Source: Eledone cirrhosa
Lineage: Eukaryota
Assembly: GCA_964016885.1 (NCBI GenBank)
Contig: OZ024740.1
Location: 35,836,001 to 35,900,000 of the forward strand
Length of the DNA: 64,000 bases
Direction: 5' to 3'
The first letter of the stretch is position 1; each line of letters opens with the position of its first letter. Both the position numbers and the translations under genes were made by a program. The notes beneath the pieces are model-generated. The model was not told the origin of the DNA, searched no databases, and saw only the letters and a program-made list of their open reading frames with translations. This document shows positions 9,001 through 64,000 of this stretch, piece after piece.

Positions 9001-12000
9001 CATCTAATACATCTCTACAGTACACTTTATCTGTTATTTACACTTCCCAACACTGTCACAACTAATATATATGAACTGTACCCTTTATCTGTTATATACA
9101 CTTCACAACACTGTCACAACTAATATATCTGTATTGTACACATTATCTTTTATATACACTTCACAACACTGTCACAACTAATATATCTATATTGTACACT
9201 TTATCTGTTATATAAACCTCACAGCACCGCCACAACTAATACATCTCTACTGTACACTTTATCTGTTATTTACACATCCCAACACTGTCACAACTAATAT
9301 ATTTGAACTGTACCCTTTATCTGTTATATACACTTCACAACAATGTCACAACTAATATATCTATATTGTATACTTTACCTGTTATATACACTTCACAACA
9401 TCGTCACAAATAATATATCTATATCGTACAGTTTATCTGTTACATACACCCCACAACACTGTCACAACTAATATATCTGTATTGTACACTATATCTGTTA
9501 TATACACCTCACAACACTGACACAACTAATATATTTGAACTTTACCATATATCTGTTATATACACTTCACAACATTGTCATAAGTAATATATCTGTATTG
9601 TACACTTTACCTCTTATACACACTTCAGAACACTGTCACAACTAATATATCTGTATTGTACACATTATCTGTTATATACACTTCACAACACTGTCACAAC
9701 TGATATATCTGTAGTGTACACTTAATCTGTTATATAAACCTTACAACACTGTCACAACTGATATATCGGTATTGTACACTTTACCTGTTATATACACTTC
9801 ACAACTTTGTCACAACTAACACATCTCTTCTGAACACTTTATCTGTTATATACACTTCACAACACTGTCACAACTAATATATCTGTACTGCATACTTTAT
9901 CTGTTATTTACACTTAACAACACTGTCACAACTAATATATCTGTATTGTACACTTTACCTGTTATATACACCTCACAACATTGTCACAACTAATATATCT
10001 GTATTGTACATATTACCTGTTATATACACATCTCATCACTGTCAGAAATAATATATCTCTACTTTACACATTATCGGTTTTATACACCTCACAACTAATG
10101 TATATATATTGTAAAGTTTATATGTTATATACACCTCACAACACTGTCACAACTAATATATCTATACTGCACACTTTATCTGTTATATACACTTCACAAC
10201 ACTGTCACAACTAATATATCTATACTTTACACATTATCTGTTATATATATCTCACAACACTGTCACAACGTATATATCTATACTGTACACTTTATCTGTT
10301 ATATACACCTCACAACACTATCACAACTAATATATCTATACTGTACACATTATCTGTTATATACACTTCACAACACTGTCACAACTAATATATCTGTATT
10401 GTACACTTTACCTTTTAAATACACTTCACGACATCGTCACAAATAATATATCGATACTGTACGATTTACCTGTTATATACACCTCACAACACTGTCAACA
10501 ATTAATATATCTATATTGTACATTTTATATTTTATATACACTTCACAAGATTGTCACAACTAATATATCTGTATTGTACACACTATCTCTTATATACACT
10601 TCACAACACTGTCACAACTAATATATCTATATTGTACACGTTATCTGTTATATACACCACACAGCACTGTCATAACTAATATATCTATGTTGTACACATT
10701 ATCTGTTACATACACTTCACAACAATGTCACAACTAATATATCTGTATTGTACGCCTCATCTGTTGTATACACCTCACAGCACTGTCACAACTAATGTAT
10801 CTATATTGTAAACTTTACCTGTTATATAAACTTCACATCACTGTCACAACTAACATTTCTGTATCGTACACTTCATGTGTTATATACACCTCACAACACT
10901 GTCACTATTAATATATCTATATTGTACACTTTATCTGTTATATACATCTAACAGCACTTTCACAACAAATACATTTCTTCTGTACACTTTATCTGTTAAA
11001 TACATGTCACAACACTGTCACAACTAATATATATCTACTTTACACTTTATCGGTTATATACACCTCACAACTAATATATGTATATTGTAAACTTTATATG
11101 TTATATACACCTCACAACACTATCACAACTAATACATCTCTTCTGAACACTTTATCTGTTATATACACTTCACAACACTGTCACAACTAATATATCTGTA
11201 CTGCATACTTTATCTGTTATTTACACTTCACAACACTGTCAGAACTAATATATCTGTATTGTACACTTTACCTGTTATATACACCTCACAACATTGTCAC
11301 AACTAATACATCTCTTCTGTACACTTTATCTGTTATATACACTTCACAACACTATCACAACTAATATATCTATATTGTAGACTGTACCTGTTTTATACAC
11401 CTCACAACAATGTCACAACTAATATATCTGTATTGTACACTTTATCTGTTATATACACTTCACAACACTGTCAGAACTAATATATCTATATAGTACATAT
11501 TACCTGTTATATACACATCTCATCACTGTCAGAACTAATATATCTCTACTTTACACATTATCGTTTATATACACCTCACAACTAATATATGTATATTGTA
11601 AACTTTATATGTTATATACACCTCACAACACTGTCACAACTAATATATCTATATTGTACACTTTATCTGTTATATACACTTCAGAACACTGTTACAACTA
11701 ATATATCTGTTTAGTACACTTTACCTCTTATATACACTTCACAACACTGTCACAACTAATATATCTATACTTTACACATGATCTGTTATATATATCTCAC
11801 AACACTGTCACAACTAATATATCTGTACTTTACACATTATCTGTTATATATATCTCACAACACTGTCACAACTAATATATCTATACTGTACACTTCATCT
11901 GTTATATACGCCTCACAACACTGTTACAATTAATATATCTATATTGTACACTTTATCTGTTCACCTCACATCATTTTCACAAGAAATACATCACTTCTGT

Positions 12001-15000
12001 ACACTTTATCTGTTATTTACACTTCACACACTGTCACAACTAATATATCCGTATTGTACACTTTATCCGTTATATGCACTTCACAACACTATCACAACTA
12101 ATATATTTATATTGTACACTTTACCTGTTATATACACTTCACAACACTGTCACAACTAATATATCTGTATTGTACACTTTATCTGTTATATACACTTCAC
12201 AACACTGTCACAACATATATATTCGCATTGTACATTTTATCTGTTATATACACCTCACAACACTGTCACAACTAATATATTTATATTACAACATTATCTG
12301 TTATATACACGTCACAACACTGTCACAACTAATATATCTATATTGTATATTTTACCTGTTCTATACACATCACATCACTGTCATAACTGATATATCTCTA
12401 CTTTATACTTTATCGGTTATATACACCTCACAATTAATATATGTATATTGTAAACATTATATGTTATATACACCTCACAACACTATCACAACTAATATAT
12501 CTATACTGTACACATTATCTGTTATATACACTTCACAACACTGTCACAACTAATATATCTGTATTACACACTTTACCTTTTATATACACTTCACGACATT
12601 GTCACAACTAATATATCGATACTGCACGATTTACCTGTTATATACACCTCACAACAGTCACAATTAATATATCTATATTGTACATTTTATCTGTTATATA
12701 CACTTCATAACACTGTCACAACTAATATCTATATTGTACATTTTATCTGTTATATACACCTTACAGCACTGTCACAACTAATATATCTCTTCTGTACACT
12801 TCATCTGTTTTATACACTTCACAACACTGTCACAACTAATAAATCGGTACTGTACAATTTATCTGTTATTTACCCATCACAACACTGTCACAACTAATAT
12901 ATCTGTATTGTACACTTTATCTGTTATATATACTTCACAACACTGTTACAACTAATATATCTGTGTTGTACACTTTATCTGTTATATACACTTCACAACA
13001 CTGTCACAACTAATATATCTATATTGTACACTTTATCTGTCATATACACCTCACAGCACGGTCACAACTAACATATCTGTATTGTACACTTTATCTGTTA
13101 TATACACTTCACAACACTGTCACAACATATATATTCGCATTGTACACTTTATCTGTTATATAGACCTCACAACACTCTCACAACTGATATATCTATATTG
13201 GACATTTTACCTGTTATATACACATCTCATCACTGTCAGAACTAATATAACTCTACTTTACACTTTATCGGTTATATACACCTCACAACTAATATATCTA
13301 TATTGTACTCTTTATCTGTTATTTACACTTCAGAACACTGTCACAACTAATATATCTGTATAGTACACTTCACATCTAGTATATACACTTCACAACACTG
13401 TCACAACTATTATATCTATACTGTAAACTTTATCTGTTATATACACTTCATACCACTGTCACAACTAATATATCTGTACTTTACACATTATCTGTTATAT
13501 ATATCTCACAACACTGTCACAATTAATATATCTACACTGTACCATTTATCTGTTATATACACCTCACAACACTGTCACAATTAATATATCTATATTGTGC
13601 ACTTCATCTGTTATATACACTTCACAACACTGCCACAACTAATATATCTGTACTTTACACTTTATCTGTTATATACACTTTAGAACACGGTCACAACTAA
13701 TATATCTATATTGTACACTCTATCTCTTATATACACTTCACAACACTGTCCCAACTCATATATCTATAATGTACAATGTACCAGTTATATACACTTCACA
13801 ACACTGTCAGAACTAATATATCCGTATTGTACACTGTATCCGTTATATACACTTCACAACACAGTCACAACTAAAGTATCTATATTGCATACTTTACATG
13901 TTATACACACTAACAACACTGTCACAACTAATATATCTATATTGTAGACTTTATCTGTTATATACACTTCACAACACTGTCACAACAATATATCTATATT
14001 GTGCACTTCATCTGTTATATACATTTCACAACACTGTCACAACTAATATATCTGTACTTTACACTTTATCTGTTATATACACTTTAGAACACGGTCACAA
14101 CTAATATATCTATATTGTGCACTTTAACTGTTATACACTCCTCACAACACTGTCACAACTAATATATCTATATTGTACAATTTATCTGTTATATGCACTT
14201 CACAACACTGTCAGAACTAATATATCCGTATTGTACACTGTATCCGTTATATACACTTCACAACACAGTCAAAACTAAAGTATCTATATTGCACACTTTA
14301 CATGTTATACACACTAACAACACTGTCACAACTAATATATCTATATTGTAGACTTTATCTGTTATATACACTTCACAACACTGTCACAACTAATATATCT
14401 GTACTTTACACTTTATCTGTTATATACACTTTAGAACACTGTCACAACTAATATATCTGTATTGTACACATTATCTATTATATACACTTCATAACACTGT
14501 TACAACTAATATATCTGTGTTGTACACTTCACCTGTTATATACACTTCACAACACTGTCACAACTAATATATCTATATTGTACACTTTATCTTTTATATA
14601 CACCTCACAGCACTGTCACAACTAATATATCTATATTGTACACTTTATCTGTTATATACACCTCACAGCACTGTCACAACTAATATATCTGTATTGTACA
14701 CTTCACCTGTTATATACACATCACAACACTGTCACAACTAATACATCTATATCGTACAATTTATCTGTTATATACACCACACAACACTGTCATAACTAAT
14801 ATATCTACGTTGTACACTTTAGCTGTTACATACATTTCACAACACTGTCACAACTAATATATCTGTATCGTACGTTTTATCTGTTATATACACCTCACAG
14901 CACTGTCACAACTAATATATCTATATAGTACACTTTTTCTGTTATATATATCTCACAACACTATCACAACTAATATATCTGTATTACACACTTTACCTTT

Positions 15001-18000
15001 TATATACACTTCACGACATTGTCACAACTAATATATCGATACTGCACGATTTACCTGTTATATACACCTCACAACAGTCACAATTAATATATCTATATTG
15101 TACATTTTATCTGTTATATACACTTCATAACACTGTCACAACTAATATCTATATTGTACATTTTATCTGTTATATACACCTTACAGCACTGTCACAACTA
15201 ATATATCTCTTCTGTACACTTCATCTGTTTTATACACTTCACAACACTGTCACAACTAATAAATCGGTACTGTACAATTTATCTGTTATTTACCCATCAC
15301 AACACTGTCACAACTAATATATCTGTATTGTACACTTTATCTGTTATATATACTTCACAACACTGTTACAACTAATATATCTGTGTTGTACACTTTATCT
15401 GTTATATACACTTCACAACACTGTCACAACTAATATATCTATATTATACATGTTATCTGTTATATACACCTCACAACACTGTCACAACTAATATATCTAT
15501 ACTGTACACTGTTTCTGTTATATACACTTCACAGCCCTTTCACAACTAATATGTCTGTACTGTACCCTTTATCTTTTATATACACCTCACAGAACTGTCA
15601 CAACTAATATATCTATATATACACTTTATCTGTTATATACATTTCACAACACTGTCACAACATATATATCTGTACTTTACCCTTTACCTGTTATATACAC
15701 TTCAGAACACTGTCACAATTAATATATCTGTATTGTACACTTTATCTGTTATATACACGTCACAACACTCTCACAACTAATATATCTATATACTACATTT
15801 TACCTGTTATATACACATCACATCACTGTAAGAACTAATATATCTCTTCTTTACAATTTATCTGTTATATATACTTCGCAACACTGTCAAAAGTAATATA
15901 TCTGTGTTTCTACACTTTATCTGTTAAATACGCTTCACAACACTGTCACAACTAATATATCTATGTTGTACACTTTATCTGTTATATACACCTCACAACA
16001 CTGTCACAACTAATATATCCGTATTGTACACTTTATCTGTTATATACACCTCACAGCACTGTCACAACTAATATATCTATATTGTACACTTTATCTGTTA
16101 TATATATATCTCACAACACTGTCACAACTAATATATCTGTATTGTACACTTTATCTGTTATATACACATTATAACAATGTCACAACTAATATATCTCTAC
16201 TTTACACTTTATCGGTTATATACACCTCACAACTAATATATGTATATTGTAAACTTCATATGTTATATATACCTCACAACACTGTCACAACTAATACATC
16301 TATATTGTACACTTTATCTGTTATATACATTTCACAACACTGTCACAATTAATATATCCGTATTGTACACTTTATCCGTTATATACACTTCACAACACAG
16401 TCACAACTAATGTATCTATATTACACCCTTTACATGTTATACACACCTAACAACACTGTCACAACTAATATATCTATATTGTACACTTTACCTCTTATAC
16501 ACACTTCACAACACTGTCACAACTAATATATCTGTACTTTACACTTTATCTGTTATATACTCCTCCCAACACTGTCCCAACTAATATATCTATATTGTAC
16601 ACTTTACCTGTTATATACACTTCACAACATCGTCACAACTAATATATCTATATTGTACACTTTATCTGTTATATACACCTCACAACACTGTCACAACTAA
16701 TATATCTGTATTGTACACTTTATCTGTTATATACACCTCACAGCACCGCCACAACTAATACATCTCTACTGTACACTTTATCTGTTATATACACTTCCCA
16801 ACACTGTCACAACTACTATATTTGAACTGTACCCTTTATCTGTTATATACACTTCACAACATTGTCATAAGTAATATATCTGTATTGTACACTTTACCTC
16901 TTATACACACTTCACAACACTGTCACAACTAATATATTTATATTGAACACTGTATCTGTTCTATATATCTCACAACACTGTCACAACTAATATATATGTA
17001 TTGTACACTTTACCTGTTATATACACCTCACAACACTGTTACAACTAATATATCTATATTGTACACTTTATCTGTTATATACACCTCACAGCACCGTCAC
17101 AACTAATATATCTCTACTGTACACTTCATCTGTTATATACACTTCACAACACTGTCACAACTAATACATCTGTATTGTACACTTTATCTGTTATGTACAC
17201 CTCACAACACTGTCACAACTAATATACCTGTATTGTACACTTTATCTGTTATATACACCTCACATCACCGTCACAACTAATACATCTCTACTGTATATTT
17301 ATCTGTTATATACACTTCACAACACTGTCAAAACTAATATATCTGTACTGTACACTTTATCTGCTATATACACCTCACAACTAATATATCGTTTTTGTAC
17401 ATTTGATCTGTTATATACACTTCACCACACTGTCACAAATAATATATCTGTATTGTACACTTCATCTGTTATATACAACTCACAGCACTATCACAACTCA
17501 TACATCTCTACTGTACACTTTATCTGTTATATACACTTCACAACACTGTCACAACTAATATATCTGTACTGTACACTTTATCTTTTATATACACCTCACA
17601 ACTTATATATGTATATTGTACATTTCATCTGTTATATACACTTCACCACACTGTCACAACTAATATATCTATATTGTACACTTCATCTGTTTTATACACC
17701 TCACAGCACTGTCACAACTAATACATCTCTACTGTACACCTTATCTGTTATATACACTTCACAACACTGTCATAACTAATATATCTGTACTATACCCTTT
17801 ATCTGTTATATACACTTCACAACATTGTCATCATTAATATATCTATATTGTACACTTTATTTGTTATATATATCTCACAACACTGCCACAACTAATATAC
17901 CTGTACTGTACACTTTACTTGTTATATACACTTCACAACATTTTCACAACTAATATATCTATATTGTACACTTTATCTGTTATATACACTCAACAACACT

Positions 18001-18993
18001 GTCACAACTAATATATCTATATTGTAAACTTTACCTGTTCTATACACATCACATCACTGTCATAACTGATATATCTCTACTTTACACTTTATCGGTTATA
18101 TACACCTCACAATTAATATATGTATATTGTAAACTTTATATGTTATATACACCTCACAACACTATCACAACTAATATATCTATACTGTACACATTATCTG
18201 TTATATACACTTCACAACACTGTCACAACTAATATATCTGTATTGTACACTTTACCTTTTATATACACTTCACGACATTGTCACAACTAATATATCGATA
18301 CTGCACGATTTACCTGTTATATACACCTCACAACAGTCACAATTAATATATCTATATTGTACATTTTATCTGTTATATACACTTCATAACACTGTCACAA
18401 CTAATATCTATATCGTACATTTTATCTGTTATATACACCTTACAGCACTGTCACAACTAATATATCTCTTCTGTACACTTCATCTGTTTTATACACTTCA
18501 CAACACTGTCACAACTAATAAATCGGTACTGTACAATTTATCTGTTATTTACCCATCACAACACTGTCACAACTAATATATCTCTACTGTACACCTTATC
18601 TGTTATATACACTTCACAACACTGTCACAACTAATATATCTGTATTTTACACTTTATCTGTTATATACACCTCACAACAGTGTCACAACTAATATATTTA
18701 TATTGAACACTGTATCTGTTATATATATCTCACAACACTGTCACAACTAATATATCTGTATTGAACACTGTATCTGTTATATATATCTCACAACACTGTC
18801 ACAACTAATATATCTGTATTGTACACTGTACCTGTTATATACACCTCACAACACTGTCACAACTAATATATCTATATTGTACACTTTATCTGTTATATAC
18901 ATCTCACAACACTTTCACAACTAATATATTTATATTCTACACTTTACCTGTCATATACACATCACAACAGTCACAACCAAAAGATCTGTATTG
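1..18993. repeat. 58-bp tandem satellite array (>=19 kb, runs off the window start), intronic
   Basis: Consensus CTGTCACAACTAATATATCTATATTGTACACTTTATCTGTTATATACACTTCACAACA repeated continuously with point variants. A recurrent variant lacks 11 nt (CACTGTCACAA). The array degenerates at ~18990. Confidence 0.97.
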
Positions 18994-53875: not shown

Positions 53876-55217
53876 CAGCGTTGAGCACCAACCAAAGCTA
53901 ATTTGACAATGTTGTATGGAGTATTTTAACTGTATTAATCGAGGTACGACTGATCTCGAGGGATGATATCTGTATTCTCGACTCACTGATTCTTTCGATA
54001 ACTGACCAAGAGTGCATGAAAGCCAAACAAGAAAACATCGCAAGAATGACCAACAAATTGCACCCCACTGATTGTCAAGCAGCACTCTTTCTGTTAACGA
54101 ACTACTTCGCTCCCTTGAAATTACTCTTTTCGTTGCGTAGTGCTTCAAGCTAGTAATACACTCGAAAGATGCCTTCATCACGCAGTCATTTTAATGCCGA
54201 TCGTTGGCGTTTATTGAAACAAATTGTTCAACTGAGTCTGTAGAGTGGTTTTGGGTTTTAGATGTCGTGTATATTCATTTAACGCAGTTTAGATAATTCT
54301 ATATAACTGTCAAAGTTTATTCTTAAATATCTGATGCATTCCAACTGGGATTTTCTAAGATAAAGTTTAGCTTTACAAGCGGTTAAGAAGCTATTAAAAC
54401 ATTTCTGCAGCGACGAAGAGAATTTCCGCTATGTTCCAATCAAATAGAACAAGTCTTGGCACTTTACTGGCATTGAAAACACTTATTTTGGGACACTCTG
54501 AATCTGGTGATTAGTCCATATGTGTTTAGAGATAATTACTTTTTATATTAAACTGTGTTTAGTTCCTGATTAGAGAAATAAAGCAAATATTCTTACCGCT
54601 TGGTCTATCGCTATTTACAGACGTTAAACATGAATAAATTTCATCCTTATATCATACTTTGTTTATAGCTTAATCTTTGGAGCAAATAATCTATTCACAA
54701 CTCTTCAATGTCTGACATGACTGGATAGGGATAGCTGCCTACTAAGTTTATTTTTAAATTAGAACTTTTGGAAAAACAGTGTTTGAGGGAAAGTAGGGTG
54801 GCAGGGAGCTTGAGTGTAGCAGTTCGTGTTTTTTATATAATTTAAATCTATATCATATATTTCAAAATTGATTTTTAATCTAGGGTCATAGATTATAATC
54901 AAACGTTTTAATTGCCAATGAAATTAAAGGTCGCTTTACTGGTCTTTCTTACCTTTGACCCGATGATGTACACACGTGGTTTATTTCAGTTTAATATAAA
55001 CATAATCCACGTGGAATATTTTTTATATTGTATATTTTTATCTAACTATCTATTAGACTGATTAAAAATAATCTATAAACATTTGTTTCAAAATTTGGTT
55101 ATTTATATAATGACCAATTTGAAAGTGTTTCAAAAGAAGCTGTATGACTTCTGGAAGTGATAAGTTGCATAATCACGTAGCCTATTCTAATCAAGTATTT
55201 TTACTTTTATTTTGAAG

Positions 55218-55315
55218 CAAACAATACAGAAAAAGCGTCCACAGAACAGCGTGAAAGAGTGAAATCAATTGCATCCGATGACGAAGAAACAATGGACGAA
55301 GTATTATCGGAAGAG
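55218..55315 (+). CDS. ABCB1: Probable 98-nt linker exon of the ABCB1-like gene ((T)NNTEKASTEQRERVKSIASDDEETMDEVLSEE)
   Basis: T-rich tract plus AG acceptor and GTTTGA donor. Open only in the phase-1 frame set by the micro-exon and ends phase 0. Charged linker-like peptide with an RxxS motif. Confidence 0.68.
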
Positions 55316-55563
55316 GTTTGACATGTTTTAAATTACATTTATTTATGGCAGTGTATAAACATAGTTACATCACACTTGATCTAAGATGATGTTCGTGAGA
55401 TGTGTAATGAACACATTTTGAATTTGATGTGAACGTAACTTTGAACTTACAAATATTTGTATTATTATAGACATAGAATATTCGAAAATATTCTGTATGT
55501 TTATAATAAACATTTTGAAGACCTAATCGCTATAGAATAGAATACGTCACGTATTACAATTAG

Positions 55564-55652
55564 ATTCTCGACAAAAGCAAGGGAAGTAATCTACGCGTTT
55601 CATTCTTGTTAGAAATCATCAGGACCACATATCCAGTGCTTTTATCGAGAAT
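55564..55652 (-). ncRNA. Type I hammerhead ribozyme, first of 8 minus-strand copies (repeat every 310 nt to ~57800)
   Basis: Minus strand GTGGTC-CTGATGA-TTTCT AACA AGAAT-GAAA-CGCG-TA^GATTAC. Stem I is GUGGUC/GAUUAC, extended by ATTCTCGATAAAAGCA/TGCTTTTGTCGAGAAT. Minimal palindromic stem III ACGCGT. Confidence 0.85.
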
Positions 55653-58043
55653 GACACAGCTAGAGACTTATAGAATACTTAGCTGTGTACAGGAACTGGT
55701 TTGAAAGAGCGGTTGCCGGTCCGGCAGAAATTAGAAATTGGAATAAATGCTCTGAAATAGCGATATATATGTGAATATAGACATAGAATATTCGAAAATA
55801 TTCTGTATGTTTATAATAAACATTTTGAAGACCTAATCGCTATAGAATAGAATACGTCACGTATTACAATTAGATTCTCGACAAAAGCAAGGGAAGTAAT
55901 CTACGCGTTTCATTCTTGTTAGAAATCATCAGGACCACATATCCAGTGCTTTTATCGAGAATGACACAGCTAGAGACTTATAGAATACTTAGCTGTGTAC
56001 AGGAACTGGTTTGAAAGAGCGGTTGCCGGTCCGGCAGAAATTAGAAATTGGAATAAATGCTCTGAAATAGCGATATATATGTGAATATAGACATAGAATA
56101 TTCGAAAATATTCTGTATGTTTATAATAAACATTTTGAAGACCTAATCGCTATAGAATAGAATACGTCACGTATTACAATTAGATTCTCGACAAAAGCAA
56201 GGGAAGTAATCTACGCGTTTCATTCTTGTTAGAAATCATCAGGACCACATATCCAGTGCTTTTATCGAGAATGACACAGCTAGAGACTTATAGAATACTT
56301 AGCTGTGTACAGGAACTGGTTTGAAAGAGCGGTTGCCGGTCCGGCAGAAATTAGAAATTGGAATAAATGCTCTGAAATAGCGATATATATGTGAATATAG
56401 ACATAGAATATTCGAAAATATTCTGTATGTTTATAATAGACATTTTGAAGACCTAATCGCTATAGAATAGAATACGTCACGTATTACAATTATATTCTCG
56501 ACAAAAGCAAGGGAAGTAATCTACGCGTTTCATTCTTGTTAGAAATCATCAGGACCACATATCCAGTGCTTTTATCGAGAATGACACAGCTAGAGACTTA
56601 TAGAATACTTAGCTGTGTACAGGAACTGGTTTGAAAGAGCGGTTGCCGGTCCGGCAGAAATTAGAAATTGGAATAAATGCTCTGAAATAGCGATATATAT
56701 GTGAATATAGACATAGAATATTCGAAAATATTCTGTATGTTTATAATAAACATTTCGAAGACCTAATCGCTATAGAATAGAATACGTCACGTATTACAAT
56801 TAGATTCTCGACAAAAGCAAGGGAAGTAATCTACGCGTTTCATTCTTGTTAGAAATCATCAGGACCACATATCCAGTGCTTTTATCGAGAATGACACAGC
56901 TAGAGACTTATAGAATACTTAGCTGTGTACAGGAACTGGTTTGAAAGAGCGGTTGCCGGTCCGGCAGAAATTAGAAATTGGAATAAATGCTCTGAAATAG
57001 CGATATATATGTGAATATAGACATAGAATATTCGAAAATATTCTGTATGTTTATAATAAACATTTTGAAGACCTAATCGCTATAGAATAGAATACGTCAC
57101 GTATTACAATTAGATTCTCGACAAAAGCAAGGGAAGTAATCTACGCGTTTCATTCTTGTTAGAAATCATCAGGACCACATATCCAGTGCTTTTATCGAGA
57201 ATGACACAGCTAGAGACTTATAGAATACTTAGCTGTGTACAGGAACTGGTTTGAAAGAGCGGTTGCCGGTCCGGCAGAAATTAGAAATTGGAATAAATGC
57301 TCTGAAATAGCGATATATATGTGAATATAGACATAGAATATTCGAAAATATTCTGTATGTTTATAATAAACATTTTGAAGACCTAATCGCTATAGAATAG
57401 AATACGTCACGTATTACAATTAGATTCTCGACAAAAGCAAGGGAAGTAATCTACGCGTTTCATTCTTGTTAGAAATCATCAGGACCACATATCCAGTGCT
57501 TTTATCGAGAATGACACAGCTAGAGACTTATAGAATACTTAGCTGTGTACAGGAACTGGTTTGAAAGAGCGGTTGCCGGTCCGGCAGAAATTAGAAATTG
57601 GAATAAATGCTCTGAAATAGCGATATATATGTGAATATAGACATAGAATATTCGAAAATATTCTGTATGTTTATAATAAACATTTTGAAGACCTAATCGC
57701 TATAGAATAGAATACGTCACGTATTACAATTAGATTCTCGACAAAAGCAAGGGAAGTAATCTACGCGTTTCATTCTTGTTAGAAATCATCAGGACCACAT
57801 ATCCAGTGCTTTTGTCGAGAATCTAATTGTAATACGTGACGTATTCTATTCTATAGCGATTAGGTCTTCAAAATGTTTATTATAAACATACAGAATATTT
57901 TCGAATATTCTATGTCTATATTCACATATATATCGCTATTTCAGAGCATTTATTCCAATTTCTAATTTCTGCCGGACCGGCAACCGCTCTTTCAAACCAG
58001 TTCCTGTACACAGCTAAGTATTCTATAAGTCTCTAGCTGTGTC

Positions 58044-58132
58044 ATTCTCGATAAAAGCACTGGATATGTGGTCCTGATGATTTCTAACAAGAATGAAACG
58101 CGTAGATTACTTCCCTTGCTTTTGTCGAGAAT
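58044..58132 (+). ncRNA. Type I hammerhead ribozyme in the inverted arm (sense to the host gene)
   Basis: CTGATGA 58074-58080, GAAA 58095-58098, predicted GUA cleavage after 58104. Same fold as the minus-strand copies. Confidence 0.85.
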
Positions 58133-58326
58133 CTAATTGTAATACGTGACGTATTCTATTCTATAGCGATTAGGTCTTCAAAATGTTTATTATAAACATA
58201 CAGAATATTTTCGAATATTCTATGTCTATATTCACATATATATCGCTATTTCAGAGCATTTATTCCAATTATTTGTATTATTATTAATTCTACGTGGAAC
58301 CAATATATTCTTTACTTTTACAGCAC

Positions 58327-58641
58327 AATTTTGAACCGGGGAAAATTTTAAGAAACAACGTCCCGGACGGTAAATTCACAGAAAAACAGCTGTTCGGTGG
58401 GAAATTATTCTTTTTCATAGTTGTATTTTTCGTGTATTTTCAACGAATCTGACCTGCGAATCTGTCGGAAACGACTTTTCTTTTAGAAAAAGGAAGGCGG
58501 TTTTCTAAAAAAAAACGAGACGTATCTGACTGATTTGGAGGTCAAATTCGTTGAAAACATAAAAAAGGCTAGGAAAAAGAACAATTTCTCACCGAACGGC
58601 CGAGGAGTTTATTCTGTAAATTTATCTCTAGCGGTTCAATT
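58327..58641. mobile_element. Degenerate palindromic MITE / foldback element
   Basis: Long imperfect inverted repeats: TTCGGTGGGAAATTATTCTTTTTC...TTTTCAACGAATCTGACCT versus AGGTCAAATTCGTTGAAAA...GAAAAAGAACAATTTCTCACCGAA. Outer TTGAACCG/CGGTTCAA. Confidence 0.65.
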
Positions 58642-58692
58642 CTCTTTCAATCACGAAAAGAACCATGGATTTTAGTTTAAGCTTAACCCAGC

Positions 58693-60490
58693 TTGTCATT
58701 TATGAACTCGGAGGTGATGGGGAGATACAACATAGAAGTAAGCAACAAATTTGAAGCACTCCAACTACTTCAAGAACAGAGAATGCCAGAAGAGCTGTTT
58801 ACGACACTCAAGGAGACAGTAAAGACAGTAGCGGAGGAAGTGTTTGGGAACGAGTCAAAAAGACCGAGGAAAGCGTGGATCTCCAAAGCCACTCTCCATC
58901 TAATGGACGAGCGCAAAAAACTCGAACGTACCAGGGCTACTTCCGAGTTTAATGAAACAAAGTACCAGGAATTGGATAAAGCAGTACAGAGGGAAGCCAG
59001 AGAGTACAAGGCAACATAGTTGAAAGAGCAGTGTGTTGAGGTTGGGGAGGCATTGCAGATACATAATATACGGAAGGCATACAGTGTCATAAAGTCACTA
59101 AAAAAAGGCTTCCATGTAAAACAAAGAAATATTGAGGACGATGAAGGAATGGTCCTGACTAATCTTCAGGACATTCTTAAAGGTGGAAGGAATATGGTGA
59201 AAGACTAAGGGGAGGCAACTAATCAACAAGTCGATGTTGGAAGGGATGAATTTCCATCCATTCTGGAATCAGAAGTCAGGGAGTCTTTGAATAGGATGCC
59301 TAACAATAAAGCTGCTGGTATCGATGACCTGCCTGTAGGGCTTTTCAAGATAGACAACGAAACAAAGATTAAGATATTGTGCTGACTATGCAACAGAATT
59401 GTAGAAACAGGCAAGTGACCTGCCAATTGGAAGAAGGCAGTTTTTATTCCCATACCAAAGATTTCCACACTATCCACACTAGCAAGATCCTCTCTTAGAG
59501 AGAACGCATAGAACGGTTGAAGAACAATGTGCGGACGAACAAATGGGTTTCAGAATGGATCAGATTTTCAATATCAGAATTATCATGGAAAAAACAAGGG
59601 AGTTTAATGTGCCTTTGTATTTAGCATTTGTAGATTACAAAAAGGCATTTGACTCTGTATTACATTCAACGCTTTGGAACGTATTGAAGAGGATGGGGTG
59701 AATGGCTCAATGGTGAAATTATTAAAGAATCTGCATCACGAGCAACAAGCTGCTGCAGTGACTGGAAAAAGAATTCACAGAATGGTTCACTGTAAACAGA
59801 TGAGTTCAACAGGGATGTCTGGTGTCACCTTTGGCATTCAATTTTTACTCTGAAAAAGTAATAAGAAAGTCAGTAGATATGCTCTCTTGGATCGAGGTTA
59901 CTGTTGGTGGGAAATAGATCAACAACCTGCCGTATGCTGAACATATAATGCTCATAGCAAACACTGCTGGCTAAAATTTACAGAATTTCAAAGGAATATA
60001 GTCTGGAGATCAACATCAAAAAGACAAAAGTAATGGCAGCAACTAGACAGAAGGAAGAAATGACTATAAGGTGATAGGCTTGAACAAGTAGAGAAGTTCA
60101 ATACTTGAGCAGACGGCAAAGATGAAGCTGGGAAATAAGGGCGAAACAAGCAACTGGAAGAACAGTTCTGAGCACACTCAGCAGCCTCTGGAAGATAGAG
60201 CTCTTACAAAGTCCTCAAATAAGAAAGTAATCAAAACATTAGTGTGGCAGGTAGCTTTACATGGTTGTGAATCAAGGACTTTAAAGGCATCTGACTTGAA
60301 ACAACTGAGTGCATTTGAAATGTTATGCTATAGGTGTGAACTCAGAATTAGCTGGACAGATGATATTAAGGAATGGACAGGAGGGAGTTTGGTGGAATGT
60401 ACAGCAATGGCAAGAGACAGGAAAAGATAGAGAGTACTGGTCCATAAGTTCATAACCCCCGACCCTCAAATATGAGGATGGGATAGAGAA
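58693..60490 (+). mobile_element. Decayed RTE-clade LINE (tether plus RT), many stops and frameshifts
   Basis: Peptides KAWISKATLHLMDERK, ILESEVRESLNRMPNNKAAGIDDLP, WKKAVFIPIPK, DQIFNIRIIMEKTREFNVPLYLAFVDYKKAFDSV, QGCLVSP, LEINIKKTKVM, VALHGCES. Confidence 0.92.
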
Positions 60491-60669
60491 GAACATATAT
60501 ATATCATGAAGGAAGTGTTGTAAGGAACTAGGTGGACCATAACGCACCAGAGTACTCGATACTATGGGTAGTAGAGTGGGTAATAGGAAAAGTGTCAGAC
60601 CCCGATGGCTGAGCTCCGGCCGTTTCGACAGCAATTTCTGAACGCTGTCGGGGTTCTGACTCTTTTCTT

Positions 60670-60702
<33 letters not shown>

Positions 60703-60707
<5 letters not shown>

Positions 60708-61105
60708 AAATTTCGCTCTACATGGCTGAATACAATACATGTAATCTGAGTTTTTCGAATATTAACAATAACATTCGATTCGTTTGCAATTATGCAAACA
60801 AGCCTCAATTTTATGCAGATCTGACTGATCAGCCAGTCTGCTAATATGTAAATCAGGCCGATCAGTCACTGTGTACTTTTGAAAATAGCATATATTTTCA
60901 CGAGCTCTGATAGCTTGTCAGGTGAACAGTGAGCTGTACTGATGAAGGGTGATACCCAGAAACATTAGTGTCTGCAGTTCTGTTCGCATGCCAACACAAG
61001 AGCAAGAATGAAGGGTTTATTCTACTGACATGGCTATAAAATTGAGGCTTGTTTGCAAAATTGCAAACGAATCGAATGTTAATATTCGAAAAACTCAGAT
61101 TACAT
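60703..61105 (+). mobile_element. Hammerhead-containing non-coding element B with ~75-bp inverted ends, inserted between (TA)n tracts
   Basis: Inverted repeats at 60739-60814 and ~61035-61105 (GTAATCTGAGTTTTTCGAATATTAACA...). Internal type I HHR. 36 extra nt lie between the left inverted arm and the (TA)n. Confidence 0.75.
60922..60987 (+). ncRNA. Type I hammerhead ribozyme
   Basis: GTGAACA-GT-GAGCTGTA-CTGATGA-A-GGGT GAT ACCC-A-GAAA-CA TTAG TG-TC^TGCAGTTC-TGTTCGC. Stem I has 8 bp plus a 7-bp extension. Predicted GUC cleavage after 60972. Confidence 0.82.
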
Positions 61106-61430
61106 TAATTATATATATATATATATATATTAGAATTGGTGCTCTGAAATAGCTATATATATATGAATGTATATATAGTGTATGTTGCAATACACTGTAT
61201 GCTTAATTAAGTGAGTCTGTCACTACTCTAAAACAATAGCATAAGGTCTTAGAAATGCTTTTAATTAAGAATAGAGTGTATTGCAAAATACACTGTATGT
61301 ACATTCATATATATATATAGCTATTTCAGAGCACCAATTCTAATTTTCAATTTCTGCTTGACTGGCAACCGCTCTGTATAATAAGTTCCTGATTATTTAC
61401 TAGAATTCTATAAGAACCAAACATCCATGA

Positions 61431-61522
61431 TTTCAGCAAACAGGAGGAGTAGTTGGCTTTGATAAGCATCAATAAATGCGAAACAAGGCCTTGTCAGCTT
61501 TATCTCCCCCTGTTTGCTGAAA
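61431..61522 (+). ncRNA. Type I hammerhead ribozyme with variant core UUGAUAA (U3-A8), copy 1
   Basis: GGCT-TTGATAA(61459-61465)-GCAT CAATAA ATGC-GAAA-CAAGGCCTTG-TC^AGCT. Outer stem TTCAGCAAACAGG/CCTGTTTGCTGAA. Palindromic stem III ACAAGGCCTTGT. Confidence 0.78.
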
Positions 61523-61754
61523 ATTAAAGTAAGTGAGTCTGTCACTACTCTAAAACAATAGCATAAGGTCTTCGAAATGCTTTTAATTAAGCATACAGTG
61601 TATTGCAAAATACACAATATATACATACATATATATATATATAGCTATTTCAGAGCACCAATTCTAATTTTAAATTTCTGCTTGACCGGCAACCGCTCTG
61701 TATAATCAGTTCCTGATTATTTACTAGAATTCTATAAGAAACAAACATCTATGA

Positions 61755-61846
61755 TTTCAGCAAACAGAGGGAGTAGTTGGCTTTGATAAGCATCAATAAA
61801 CGCGAAACAAGGCTTTGTCAGCTTTATCTCCCCCTGTTTGCTGAAA
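61755..61846 (+). ncRNA. Type I hammerhead ribozyme with variant core UUGAUAA (U3-A8), copy 2
   Basis: Same fold 324 nt downstream, with one mismatch in stem II (GCAT/ACGC) and one change in stem III. Confidence 0.7.
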
Positions 61847-61949
61847 ATTAAAGTAAGTGAGTCTGTCACTACTCTAAAAGAATAGCATAAGGTCTTCGAA
61901 ATGCTTTTAATTAAGCATACAGTGTATTGCAAAATACACAATATATACA

Positions 61950-61952
<3 letters not shown>

Positions 61953-62006
<54 letters not shown>
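61953..62006. repeat. (TA)n microsatellite (further tracts at ~60675-60702 and 61111-61130)
   Basis: Seen directly. Confidence 0.95.
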
Positions 62007-62009
<3 letters not shown>

Positions 62010-62782
62010 TATATAATGCGTACAGGCTTTATTTCTAACACATCTCTGCTACTCAGTTCTTTTCGAACTTCTTCCCTCAGCACGAGGAATCTATCATCAC
62101 ACAGAATTCACTCTCACCCTCACTCAAAACTTTCATCTAGATATGTGCAACAAAGATCTTTAGTCATTCTGGCTCAAATTCTTTCATCTCAATTATTTCA
62201 TGTTGGAATGATGGGAAATGTTGAAGCATTGGGTATCACAAGTTGTTCCTCGTGGCAACAACTCTTCTAACCCATCATAGTTGGTATAGTGTTTGCTACC
62301 TCCCCATATATCTCTAGCCAATAGTGTAGAGTTTGCCACTATCCCAATTCTTCTTCCATATCACTTTTTCTTTCGTCTTTTTTTGTCTTTTTGTCATTAT
62401 GATATAAATGTATTTTAAATAAAATAATTACTAAATATTTTATGTTGACTTTACTGTTTTCCGAATGCCTTCAACCCTAAAAGGACGTTCAACTATATTT
62501 TGTTCTGTATAACATGTCAAACACACCTTATATCAACGTATTAGACGTTCAGACTGACCACTGTCGTTTACATTGACAGCTCCAGTCTGGAGTTGTCTGG
62601 AAAGTGTCTGAGAATTCACTCACAAAGTAATATAAAAAACGGTCCCATTATCCTGGGAACAATTGATTTATTCCATGAAAATTCAATAAACAGTTTCAGA
62701 TTTTATAAGATTTAGATTTATAGAGGATGGATAATTGAATACTCTGACATTTATGTTTTTTTCCAAACACACAAGCAATGTA

Positions 62783-63934
62783 CGAGGGTCGGCTGAAAGT
62801 GTCATAGGCTAACCTGGATACTCTCATAGAATGGGACCAAATGACGTCTATTTTTCAACATAGCCCCACTGGCGGTTCACACACTTCTTCCACCAGTGTT
62901 TCAGTGCTTGGATCCTTCATCCTGGAAGCTTTCATCCTGTTGGTCAAAAAGTTATCAACAGAAGATATGACGTTATCATCACTATGACACTGGTTCCCAG
63001 CTAAATGTATTTTTCATGTTGGGGAATCAGGAAAATGAGGAATCTGACCAAACAGTTCAAAGGCGCAGTCACACACTGCAGCCTTTGATACCAAGGCTTT
63101 ATATGCTGGAGCTTTGTCCTGATGTAACAAGACCCTTTTCTTCAGTTTACATGGCCGTCTGGTCTTGAAAGCCTTTCATAACTATCTTGGCAAGTTGGCA
63201 TAGCAATCACCATTGATGGTGTGGTCTTCTTGAAGATAGTCAATAAACGCATACCTTTTGCACCCCAAAACCTGAGGACATCATCTTCACTTCTGATAAA
63301 ACGACCCTGGCCTTCTTTGGAACAGGTGAGGGGGGGTGTTTCCAATGCATGGATTGTCTCTTTGTCTCTAGGTTAGAAGGAAACCAGCTGGATCTTCCTC
63401 AAATAATGTCAGATTTCCCCGTCATGCCAAGTTCATTTTGCAGAATATTATCAATTCTCTCACAAAATATGCTAATAGCATTGACTATTTGATTTATAGT
63501 CAATCGTCTGTTATCCATTGCCATATGCTGAAAACAATTAATGTATTCCTAGGTGGTGGCAGTTGCAGGACGTCCAGACCTTGGGTCATCTTCAAAACTC
63601 TCCCTTCCTCTCCTAAATTCAGCTGCCCACTTTTACACTGTTGATAAAGCTGAAGTGTCGCCCTCTAATGTAGCAACCATGTCAGCATGAATGTCCTTTG
63701 GGGCTAAACCCTTTTTCTGTCGGTACTTGATAACACCACGGTGCCAAATTTTTGTCAATTTTCAAGAATTCATTACTAGTTACATTTGATGTCTTCTTTG
63801 AATAGTCACATGTCTGTTTACATGGAAATTGATGCAGTTATTAACAAGAGAAGTTGAAATTAATGCATGCAATATTTCACAGCTTTAGCATCACTCCTTC
63901 ATAGCCAACCTATGAACTTTTCAGCCCACCCTCG
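62783..63934 (-). mobile_element. Decayed mariner transposon with both TIRs (~1.15 kb)
   Basis: TA|CGAGGGTCGGCTGAAAGTGTCATAGG ... CCTATGAACTTTTCAGCCCACCCTCG|TA. Minus-strand peptide KIWHRGVIKY...KDIHADMVATL...KWAAEFRRGRESFEDDPRSGRP...RRLTI is the mariner HTH region, with stops and frameshifts. Confidence 0.92.
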
Positions 63935-64000
63935 TATATAAACTGAATTGAATGCAATTGTGAATTAAAACAGATTCACGGATTCATCTCGCGGTGACAC

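What the first reader, a model, noticed from the sequence alone, without database searches (positions are those of the whole stretch)
57850..61950. Covarying non-ribozyme RNA module shared by the 310- and 324-nt families (UUCG versus GCAA tetraloop swap)
Seen: the HHR domains of A and C differ in sequence, but outside them both keep the same ordered module. It runs AGGTCTTC, a hairpin (ATGTTTA-t-TAAACAT-type in A, ATGCTT...AAGCAT in C), a second hairpin (AGAATATT-TTCG-AATATTCT in A, GTGTATT-GCAA-AATACAC in C), a short (TA)n, GCTATTTCAGAGCA, then GACCGGCAACCGCTCT and CAGTTCCTG. The stems covary and one stable tetraloop type is replaced by another. Both main arrays terminate just after the tetraloop hairpin. 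Inference: this is a conserved cis-element for RT recognition, priming or transcription, not explained by the ribozyme and possibly a new RNA motif.
Basis: partly seen in the sequence, partly recalled or inferred. Interest (0 to 1): 0.72.

Follow-up and report, generated by a model that had tools for sequence, protein, structure and literature searches.

The report
Retrozyme module holding reverse-transcription start sites
Two self-cutting-RNA repeat families in this animal genome share a conserved non-ribozyme stretch in which their insertions stop at two fixed points, so it is likely the place where a borrowed Penelope-type reverse transcriptase binds and starts copying the RNA.

Summary
The ordered module is real. 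The 310-nt (A) and 324-nt (C) hammerhead repeats share AGGTCTTC, two hairpins, a TA run, GCTATTTCAGAGCA, GACCGGCAACCGCTCT and CAGTTCCTG. Module identity is 75%, against 55% for the rest and 46% for shuffles.

Two more lineages in the genome, E and F, carry the same module. Covariation is real but thin. Three base pairs (one in hairpin 1, two in hairpin 2) change on both sides, with a U.G intermediate. The other pairs never vary between lineages. In a 93-copy alignment the event-type measure does not exceed shuffles.

The stronger result is positional. Insertion ends fall at two fixed sites 25-26 nt apart inside the module. T1 lies just before GCTATTTCAGAGCA. T2 lies 11 nt after it. Of 19 two-ended insertions, 18 have one end of each kind. 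Arms are always back to back, and targets are mostly (TA)n.

This is the published Penelope-like-element footprint: two internal start sites, a one-sided tail and an inverted copy. I read the module as the likely RT binding and start region of a retrozyme superfamily.

The partner element was not identified and no RNA data were available. Earlier notes of this scan describe the two-armed 310-nt family on other DNA. The shared module is the addition here.

The parts
55469..57822 (-). Family A (310 nt), left arm, about 7.6 monomers with the ribozyme sense on the minus strand. The outer (left) end lies 6-9 nt after hairpin 2.
   Evidence: TRF period 310, 99% matches. Sequence; coordinates.
57823..58269 (+). 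Family A, right arm, 1.44 monomers. The inversion junction lies at the 16-nt stem TGCTTTTGTCGAGAAT / ATTCTCGATAAAAGCA. The outer end is at T2, after TTTATTCCAAT.
55454..55468 (.). Left copy of the 15-bp target-site duplication TATTTGTATTATTAT flanking the whole two-armed A insertion.
   Evidence: exact repeat at 58270-58284
58270..58284 (.). Right copy of the 15-bp target-site duplication.
57862..58029 (+). Shared module, family A copy. It contains AGGTCTTC 57862-57869, hairpin 1 57873-57889, hairpin 2 57892-57911 and the TA run ending at 57934 (T1). The 25-nt tail GCTATTTCAGAGCA+TTTATTCCAAT is at 57935-57959 (T2 after 57959). Further parts are GACCGGCAACCGCTCT 57975-57990, CAGTTCCTG 57998-58006 and ATTCTATAAG 58020-58029.
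   Evidence: fold
58074..58104 (+). Family A hammerhead core, CTGATGA - helix II - GAAAC - palindromic ACGCGT, with predicted cleavage after GTA. Helix I is formed by GTGGTC (58068-58073) and GATTAC (58105-58110).
   Evidence: Read from the sequence. No Rfam match at E<=1.
61130..61207 (-). Family C, short inverted left arm. Its outer end is at T2 (reverse complement of GCTATTTCAGAGCACCAATTCTA) and abuts (TA)n. The junction lies in the hairpin 1 palindrome.
61208..61967 (+). Family C (324 nt), right arm, 2.4 monomers, ending in the TA run (T1 class) that merges with the flanking (TA)n.
   Evidence: TRF period 324, 95% matches
61566..61738 (+). Shared module, family C copy. It contains AGGTCTTC 61566-61573, hairpin 1 61577-61594, hairpin 2 61598-61615 and the tail GCTATTTCAGAGCACCAATTCTAAT 61644-61668. 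Further parts are GACCGGCAACCGCTCT 61684-61699, CAGTTCCTG 61707-61715 and ATTCTATAAG 61729-61738.
   Evidence: fold
61783..61819 (+). Family C hammerhead with core TTGATAA...GAAAC (U3 and A8 in place of C3 and G8) and the palindromic helix III ACAAGGCTTTGT. A second copy is at 61459-61495.
   Evidence: Rfam Hammerhead_HH9 at E=0.13 and 0.31, below gathering score

Best explanation
The shared stretch of about 170 nt is the best-conserved part of four related hammerhead retrozyme lineages and holds the two fixed points where their genomic insertions end; it is likely the region where a Penelope-like reverse transcriptase, supplied in trans, binds the retrozyme RNA and starts cDNA synthesis.

Shown here:
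- The module is present and conserved in lineages A, C, E and F.
- There are two end classes, T1 and T2, 25-26 nt apart on either side of GCTATTTCAGAGCA plus 11 nt.
- There is one end of each class per insertion.
- Arms lie back to back with their 3' ends pointing outward.
- Targets are mostly (TA)n, and the window's A insertion has a 15-bp target duplication.
- RT + GIY-YIG elements with the same end logic exist in this genome.

Inferred: the array is transcribed, the hammerhead cuts out unit-length RNA, and this RNA is probably circularised. The Penelope-type protein then nicks both strands of an AT-rich target. Each 3'-OH primes at T1 or T2, and each polymerase runs round the RNA. The two cDNAs are joined at internal palindromes. 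Hairpins 1 and 2 and the predicted helix between GCUAUU.CAGAGC and GCUCUG...AAU.AG would position the start sites or bind the enzyme.
For: Conservation:
- Module identity between A and C is 75%, against 55% for the rest and 46-49% for shuffles.
- The exact two-block pattern occurs 16,732 times in the genome, and the reversed control pattern 0 times.
- The module is also present in lineage F and lineage E.
- The lineages otherwise have different ribozyme domains, CUGAUGA in A and F and UUGAUAA in C and E.

Ends:
- Seventy candidate terminal partial copies were listed. A minority were locus-edge or internal artefacts. The rest cluster at T1 (A position <=72, C <=78) and T2 (A 98, C 103, and some at 106-110).
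- By my tally of the table, 18 of 19 loci with two recorded ends have one end of each class.
- Lineage E has 33 terminal copies: 15 T1, 14 T2 and 4 other.

Layout:
- Adjacent opposite-strand copies are always (-,+): 9 of 9 and 6 of 6.
- Most ends abut (TA)n.
- The window's A insertion has a 15-bp duplication.

Published parallel:
- A Poseidon element starts reverse transcription at two adjacent internal sites, and the 30-40-bp 'tail' lies between them. Its protein-binding motif maps around and downstream of those sites, and it cleaves and extends both target strands (PMC11167929, main text read).
- Penelope-like insertions have an inverted 5'-truncated copy and a one-sided tail, and Naiad and Hydra elements prefer (TA)n (PMC8557442, passages read).

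Same genome:
- It ends at CACTTTCTAAT|(AT)n in 3 of 3 copies. Its inverted arm ends 64 nt earlier in 1 copy.
- It shares the terminal TTCTAAT with T2 of family C.

Structure:
- Hairpin 2 is predicted in all four lineages and hairpin 1 in C and E.
- Three pairs are compensated, and lineage F has a U.G intermediate.
Against: No element that encodes a protein and carries this module was found. The 22 GIY-YIG loci and 18 loci of another hammerhead family gave only nearby retrozyme inserts and one weak partial match. That is a tiny sample of 10,596 GIY-YIG candidates.

The one well-characterised Penelope-type element here shares only a terminal heptamer with the module.

T1 lies in the element's own TA run next to a (TA)n target. 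Some T1 ends could therefore be later deletions or slippage rather than start sites, and their exact position cannot be read.

Covariation is thin. In 93 copies, 4 of 36 pairs change on both sides, no more than in shuffles (328 of 500 shuffles reach it). The long-range helix never varies, so it is untested. Folding z-scores are modest at -0.9 to -3.2, and the two strands tested in both orientations scored alike.

No RNA run was on record, so transcription, circles and start sites are all unobserved.
Confidence: 0.58

Rival explanations
1. The module is conserved because it carries an internal promoter or other transcription signal for the array, and the fixed ends are a side effect.
For: ATTCTATAAG, a TATA-like box, is nearly invariant in all four lineages and lies upstream of the ribozyme. 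The 2024 Poseidon paper assumes a promoter in the pseudo-LTR (PMC11167929, main text).
Against: The best-conserved blocks (GCTATTTCAGAGCA, GACCGGCAACCGCTCT) flank the insertion ends rather than a start of transcription. The TATA-like box lies at the 3' edge of the module. No RNA data could be obtained to place a transcript start.
Confidence: 0.12
2. There is no specific cis function. The four lineages are diverged relatives, or recombinants made by template switching. The module changes more slowly because it forms part of a compact rod-like fold needed for stability or ligation of the circular RNA.
For: The rest of the A and C monomers is still slightly above random (55% against 46%), so the monomers are homologous throughout. 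Metazoan retrozyme RNAs are described as highly self-paired (PMC7229834, passages read). Hairpins occur all along the monomer. Copies mixing E-like and C-like features exist, such as L176.
Against: General folding does not explain why unpaired or invariant sequence blocks are the most conserved parts. It also does not explain why both insertion ends sit on either side of one of those blocks in four lineages.
Confidence: 0.2
3. The palindromes act at the DNA level, as hairpins in single-stranded cDNA that let the two arms anneal and join. They are not RNA signals.
For: Inversion junctions lie in palindromes. The family C junction is in hairpin 1 at 61190-61207, and the family A junction is in the 16-nt stem at 57807-57838. 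Minus-strand folds are about as stable as plus-strand folds.
Against: Lineage F carries U.G at pair 4 of hairpin 1 in several independent loci (L033, L097, L098, L112). That pairs in plus-strand RNA but would be C.A on the minus strand. The joining role also does not need the unpaired conserved blocks.
Confidence: 0.08

Closest known systems
Internal reverse-transcription initiation region and 'tail' of Penelope-like elements (Poseidon PAc of Anolis carolinensis, Frangieh et al. 2024, PMC11167929; insertion architecture in Craig et al. 2021, PMC8557442)
   Same: Two fixed start sites a few tens of nucleotides apart, about 100-150 nt downstream of a type I hammerhead cut site. The extra tail is found at one end of an insertion only. 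An inverted 5'-truncated partner copy is present. Targets are AT-rich or (TA)n.
   Different: Here the element is non-coding, 310-347 nt long and tandemly multimeric. The tail is 25-26 nt rather than 30-40 nt. One start site sits in a (UA)n run that can pair with the (TA)n target, whereas the paper stresses lack of homology with the target. No sequence similarity to a coding Penelope-like element was found beyond TTCTAAT at the end.
Metazoan non-LTR retrozymes (Cervera and de la Pena 2020, PMC7229834; Li, Clavereau and Pollet 2026 preprint, 10.64898/2026.07.22.740005)
   Same: Tandem repeats of 170-400 nt, each with a type I hammerhead, AT-rich, with no LTR, PBS or PPT. Penelope-like elements are proposed as the mobilisers. 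In Xenopus the retrozymes resemble pseudo-LTRs.
   Different: The passages and sections of those papers that I read name no conserved non-ribozyme element or start site. The 2020 paper says only that a properly primed circle must be recognised by the RT. Here a specific conserved module with mapped ends is proposed for that role.
Non-autonomous elements that share the 3' recognition region of their autonomous partner (SINE/LINE pairs; from general knowledge, not read here)
   Same: Unrelated or diverged bodies keep one common segment at the place where reverse transcription starts.
   Different: In this case the partner carrying the same segment has not been found, and the start is internal on a probably circular template.

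Membership tests
Metazoan non-LTR retrozymes | Each monomer carries a type I hammerhead ribozyme | tested here: inconclusive
   In A, the core CUGAUGA...GAAAC with helices I and II and a palindromic minimal helix III can be read from the sequence, but there is no Rfam match at E<=1. In C, Hammerhead_HH9 matches at E=0.13 and 0.31, below the gathering score, with U3/A8 in the core. Cleavage was not tested.
Metazoan non-LTR retrozymes | Short tandem repeats of about 170-400 bp without LTR, PBS or PPT | tested here: met
   TRF gives period 310 x 7.6 copies and period 324 x 2.4 copies. No long terminal repeats are visible in the sequence.
Metazoan non-LTR retrozymes | Expressed as linear and circular RNAs | not testable with these tools
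   No listed run is on record as RNA. Only contigs could be laid.
Penelope-like-element insertion footprint | Inverted 5'-truncated copy adjoining the main copy | tested here: met
   Both window insertions are two-armed. Adjacent opposite-strand copies are (-,+) in 9 of 9 cases and 6 of 6 cases.
Penelope-like-element insertion footprint | Short extension (tail, 30-40 bp in the literature) at one end only, bounded by two fixed ends | tested here: met
   The tail is 25-26 nt. By my tally of the table, 18 of 19 two-ended loci have one T1 and one T2 end. Lineage E has 15 T1, 14 T2 and 4 other of 33 ends. The length is slightly below the published range.
Penelope-like-element insertion footprint | AT-rich or (TA)n target preference | tested here: met
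   Most ends abut (TA)n. The window's A insertion is in TATTTGTATTATTAT.
Penelope-like-element insertion footprint | Mobilised by an RT + GIY-YIG protein | not testable with these tools
   Such elements exist in the genome (10,596 GIY-YIG candidates; RVT_1 + GIY-YIG in a 938-aa frame). No link to this module beyond a shared terminal TTCTAAT was found.
Structured RNA motif supported by covariation | Several base pairs kept through changes on both sides, in excess of controls | tested here: inconclusive
   With 12 sequences, 3 of 30 pairs are compensated and the covariation score is 0.089 against 0.065 (4 of 500 shuffles reach it). With 93 sequences, 4 of 36 pairs are compensated, not above shuffles (328 of 500). 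Cell-based measures are above every shuffle but are inflated by relatedness. A simple substitution null gives 0.008 for hairpin 2 between A and C and about 0.06 for each of the other two events.
Any Rfam family | Match of the module to a curated covariance model | tested here: not met
   cmscan of 54000-64000 at E<=1 gave only two weak hammerhead matches and one chance miRNA match outside the module.

The most novel reading that the evidence does not exclude
The module is a portable 'start here' signal. It is an RNA fold (two hairpins, a UA run, and a long-range helix enclosing a 25-nt tail) that recruits one Penelope-type reverse transcriptase and fixes its two start sites. At least four ribozyme lineages with different catalytic-core variants have kept it in order to parasitise that enzyme. 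It would be the first defined cis-acting recognition element of animal retrozymes.
Probability: 0.35. Interest if true: 0.72.

Novelty: new variant of a known kind. Interest (0 to 1): 0.5.

Why it matters
The 2020 retrozyme paper states that a properly primed circular RNA must be recognised by a reverse transcriptase, but leaves open what is recognised. The only biochemical study of a Penelope-like element (2024) maps internal start sites in one lizard element.

If the reading holds, this genome offers thousands of young insertions in which the start sites of a non-coding passenger can be read directly. It also offers a short conserved RNA segment that can be mutated and tested. That would make the proposed Penelope-retrozyme dependence, and rolling reverse transcription of RNA circles, directly testable.

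If the module is only a slowly diverging part of related repeats, the finding is ordinary repeat biology.

Tried and rejected
Rfam scan of 54000-64000 at E<=1 found nothing for the module.

Rfam scan of eight GIY-YIG loci gave only spurious miRNA matches on (TA)n and was uninformative.

Search for a coding partner:
- Pfam GIY-YIG in the genome.
- Ten long-frame loci fetched.
- Block, hammerhead and nhmmer scans.
- No coding element carrying the module turned up. The only hits were a nearby retrozyme insert (L142) and a weak partial look-alike (L146, E=9e-4), which I did not resolve.

The Rfam Hammerhead_1 search of the genome returned one other family (D, 18 loci) without the module.

RNA evidence: no RNA holder was listed. 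The contigs laid cannot show starts, ends or strand.

A 'captured SINE/MITE' origin was rejected, because the monomers are collinear and weakly alignable throughout.

Earlier-notes look-up by sequence found nothing.

I considered a snap-back (self-primed) origin of the second arm. I rejected it because the two arms end at different sites (T1 against T2) and differ in length.

I considered that hairpin 3 (TAATCAG/CTGATTA in C, GTTTAA/TTAAAC in E) covaries. The pairing registers differ, so I did not count it.


Full report
WHAT IS THERE

The last 9 kb of the window holds two tandem families. Family A has period 310 and 7.6 copies at 99% identity, at 55466-57822. It continues in the opposite orientation to 58269. 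Family C has period 324 and 2.4 copies at 61208-61967, preceded by a short inverted stub at 61130-61207.

Each monomer carries a hammerhead-like domain. In A it reads CTGATGA-helix II-GAAAC-ACGCGT, with helix I formed by GTGGTC and GATTAC (58068-58110). It is read from the sequence only, and Rfam gives no match at E<=1. In C the core is TTGATAA...GAAAC with a palindromic helix III. Rfam Hammerhead_HH9 matches weakly, at E=0.13 and 0.31.

THE OBSERVATION

A global alignment of rotated monomers gives 114 of 151 identical columns (75%) from AGGTCTTC to CAGTTCCTG. The rest gives 101 of 182 (55%). Shuffled sequences give 46-49% (sd 2, maximum 55%).

The two monomers are therefore homologous throughout, and the module is the slowly evolving part. 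Peaks of 83-87% lie over GCTATTTCAGAGCA and GACCGGCAACCGCTCT.

THE GENOME

The window lies in a 3.0-Gb assembly. The exact pattern GCTATTTCAGAGCA-N(20-50)-GACCGGCAACCGCTCT occurs 16,732 times, and its reversed control 0 times.

Patterns that exclude the A and C flanks and a DNA search showed two more lineages with the same ordered module.
- Lineage F is about 320 nt and has a canonical CUGAUGA hammerhead.
- Lineage E is about 347 nt and has a UUGAUAA core like C, with 4,417 first-look candidates.

A fifth hammerhead family, D (18 loci), lacks the module.

COVARIATION

At the level of lineages the hairpins differ as follows.

| Feature | A | C | E | F |
|---|---|---|---|---|
| Hairpin 1, pair 4 | U-A | C-G | U-A | U.G (some F copies C-G) |
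| Hairpin 2, pair 3 | A-U | U-A | U-A | U-A |
| Hairpin 2, pair 4 | A-U | G-C | A-U | A-U |
| Hairpin 2 loop | UUCG | GCAA | AUCA or AUUA | GCCA |

The U.G state in F occurs in several independent loci. No lineage-level difference breaks a pair.

Formal counts are modest.
- On 12 representative copies, 3 of 30 pairs change on both sides. The covariation score is 0.089 against 0.065, and 4 of 500 shuffles reach it.
- On 93 genomic copies, 4 of 36 pairs change on both sides, which is no more than in shuffles (328 of 500). The cell-based measures exceed all shuffles, but the tool warns that relatedness inflates them.
- Under a simple independent-substitution null, keeping all eight pairs of hairpin 2 through the four A-to-C stem changes has probability 0.008. 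The other two events have about 0.06 each.

RNAalifold adds a long-range helix between GCUAUU.CAGAGC and GCUCUG..AAU.AG, and a small inner hairpin. Both are invariant and therefore untested.

Hairpin 2 is in the minimum-energy fold of all four lineages. Hairpin 1 is in the folds of C and E, and in the circular fold of A. Z-scores range from -0.9 to -3.2. The two stretches folded on both strands scored alike. The U.G pairs favour the plus (ribozyme) strand.

Many copies carry uncompensated single changes. This is expected for copies that decay after insertion.

WHERE INSERTIONS END

This is the main result. I mapped terminal partial monomers in all fetched loci. Seventy candidate ends were listed, of which a minority were locus-edge or internal artefacts. 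The ends fall into two classes.
- T1 lies in the element's TA run, immediately 5' of GCTATTTCAGAGCA (A position <=72, C <=78).
- T2 lies 11 nt after that block (...TTATTCCAAT| in A, ...CCAATTCTAAT| in C). Some ends lie 3-7 nt further on.

By my tally of the table, 18 of 19 loci with two recorded ends have one end of each class, and 1 has two T2-class ends. Lineage E gives 15 T1, 14 T2 and 4 other ends out of 33. Most ends abut (TA)n.

Where copies of opposite orientation adjoin, the order is always minus then plus. That means the 3' ends point outward. This holds in 9 of 9 cases and 6 of 6.

In the window, the A insertion (55469-58269) is flanked by an exact 15-bp duplication, TATTTGTATTATTAT. 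Its right end is T2. Its left end lies 6-9 nt after hairpin 2, with a 3-nt overlap with the target. That is earlier than usual, and this is one of the few insertions not in (TA)n.

The C insertion has T2 at its left end and a T1-class end at its right.

COMPARISON WITH WHAT IS KNOWN

Frangieh et al. 2024 (PMC11167929, main text read) showed in vitro that a Poseidon element starts reverse transcription at two adjacent internal sites, with the genomic 'tail' between them. The element nicks and extends both target strands. It prefers AT-rich DNA. Its protein-binding motif lies in the RNA around and just downstream of the start sites, about 100 nt past the hammerhead.

Craig et al. 2021 (PMC8557442, passages read) describe the inverted 5'-truncated copy and the 30-40-bp tail at one end. 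They also describe (TA)n targeting by Naiad and Hydra elements.

Cervera and de la Pena 2020 (PMC7229834, passages and part of the Discussion read) propose Penelope-like elements as the mobilisers. They say only that a properly primed circle must be recognised by the RT. Li et al. 2026 (preprint; abstract and one results section read) relate Xenopus retrozymes to pseudo-LTRs.

Three full-text searches listed no paper whose title or abstract defines a conserved start or recognition element in animal retrozymes. Beyond the four papers above I did not read the listed papers.

The footprint here matches the published one point for point, apart from a slightly shorter tail of 25-26 nt. T1 lies about 120 nt and T2 about 146 nt downstream of the predicted cut site.

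PENELOPE-TYPE ELEMENTS IN THIS GENOME

Pfam GIY-YIG gives 10,596 first-look candidates. One element (L154, L155, L162) has a 938-aa frame. It matches RVT_1 at 28 bits, just under the cut-off, and has a C-terminal GIY-YIG domain at 28.3 bits, over the cut-off.

Its pseudo-LTRs carry a UUGAAAA...GAAACCGGTA minimal hammerhead. It ends at CACTTTCTAAT|(AT)n in 3 of 3 copies. Its inverted arm ends 64 nt earlier in 1 copy.

The enzyme class and the two-ended logic are therefore present. The terminal TTCTAAT equals that of T2 in family C. Family D also ends after ...TAAT or ...TTCTAATCCTT (10 and 8 of 18 loci).

This element has no other similarity to the module. No coding element with the module was found among 22 GIY-YIG loci. 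That sample is very small, so the partner remains unknown.

READING

The module is most likely the reverse-transcription start and binding region of a retrozyme superfamily. It would be kept by selection in the active lineages because all of them depend on the same Penelope-type enzyme.

The positions of the ends, the arm layout, the targets and the conservation are shown. Binding, priming at T1 and T2, rolling copying of a circle and the role of each hairpin are inferred.

T1 needs the most caution, because it sits in a TA run beside (TA)n. The rivals are a promoter, general folding or shared ancestry, and cDNA-level palindromes for arm joining. None is excluded, but each explains less.

OTHER DATA

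No run on record as RNA holds the sequence. Contigs from one run hold family A at a summed word depth of several hundred thousand. That would fit genomic DNA of a host with thousands of copies, though depth is not a copy number. Three runs labelled as other coded organisms each hold a 340-nt contig covering one 310-nt unit plus about 30 nt, at depth 10-48. Their kind is unknown, so I draw nothing from them.

EARLIER NOTES OF THIS SCAN

The two-armed, Penelope-type reading of the 310-nt family has been reached several times on other DNA of this genome. One note on Penelope stumps pointed me to the 2024 paper. The addition here is that the start region is a module shared by four lineages, together with the explicit test of its covariation.

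Noticed in passing
window 61459-61495 and 61783-61819; L116, L079, L154: The hammerhead cores of lineages C and E, and of a coding Penelope-type element, read UUGAUAA or UUGAAAA. C3 and G8 are both replaced (U3, A8), which would keep the C3-G8 pair as U-A. Lineages A and F keep CUGAUGA. This is a natural double change in the catalytic core. Activity was not tested.
   Followed up: partly
window 60703-61110: A fold-back element of about 400 bp lies between two (TA)n runs. It has terminal inverted repeats of about 70 bp (TGTAATCTGAGTTTTTCGAATATTAACA...) and an internal CTGATGAAGGGTGATACCCAGAAAC hammerhead-like core. A related copy lies beside the inverted arm of the Penelope-type element in L162.
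   Followed up: no
window 58285-60660: A degraded retrotransposon-like stretch with many stops lies directly after the right target duplication of the A insertion. Its open frames were listed and not scanned against any protein library. At 58434-58559 it contains an inverted repeat that Rfam scores as a chance miRNA match.
   Followed up: no
window 1-18993 and 19552-47579: Two very long satellites fill three quarters of the window. One has period 58 with about 331 copies, and the other period 45 with about 618 copies.
   Followed up: no
L043-L060: A separate hammerhead family (CCCTGATGAGTCCTAAATAGGACGAAACATTGTC) also ends at two fixed sites in (TA)n. Ten of 18 loci end after ...CTCTTAAT and 8 of 18 end about 115 nt further on, after ...TTCTAATCCTT. 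It has no sequence similarity to the module.
   Followed up: partly
L146:511-615: A weak partial look-alike of the 5' half of the module (ATAGC..AAGGCTTTCTAAATGTT...AAACATAC) ends at AATTCTCTTAT|(AT)n. It may be a more distant lineage.
   Followed up: no
window 57823-58270 laid on coded runs X4-X6: Runs labelled as three other coded organisms each hold a 340-nt contig of family A. Each covers one 310-nt unit plus about 30 nt at 99% identity or more, at depth 10-48. Such a contig could come from a tandem or a circular template. The run kind is unknown.
   Followed up: partly
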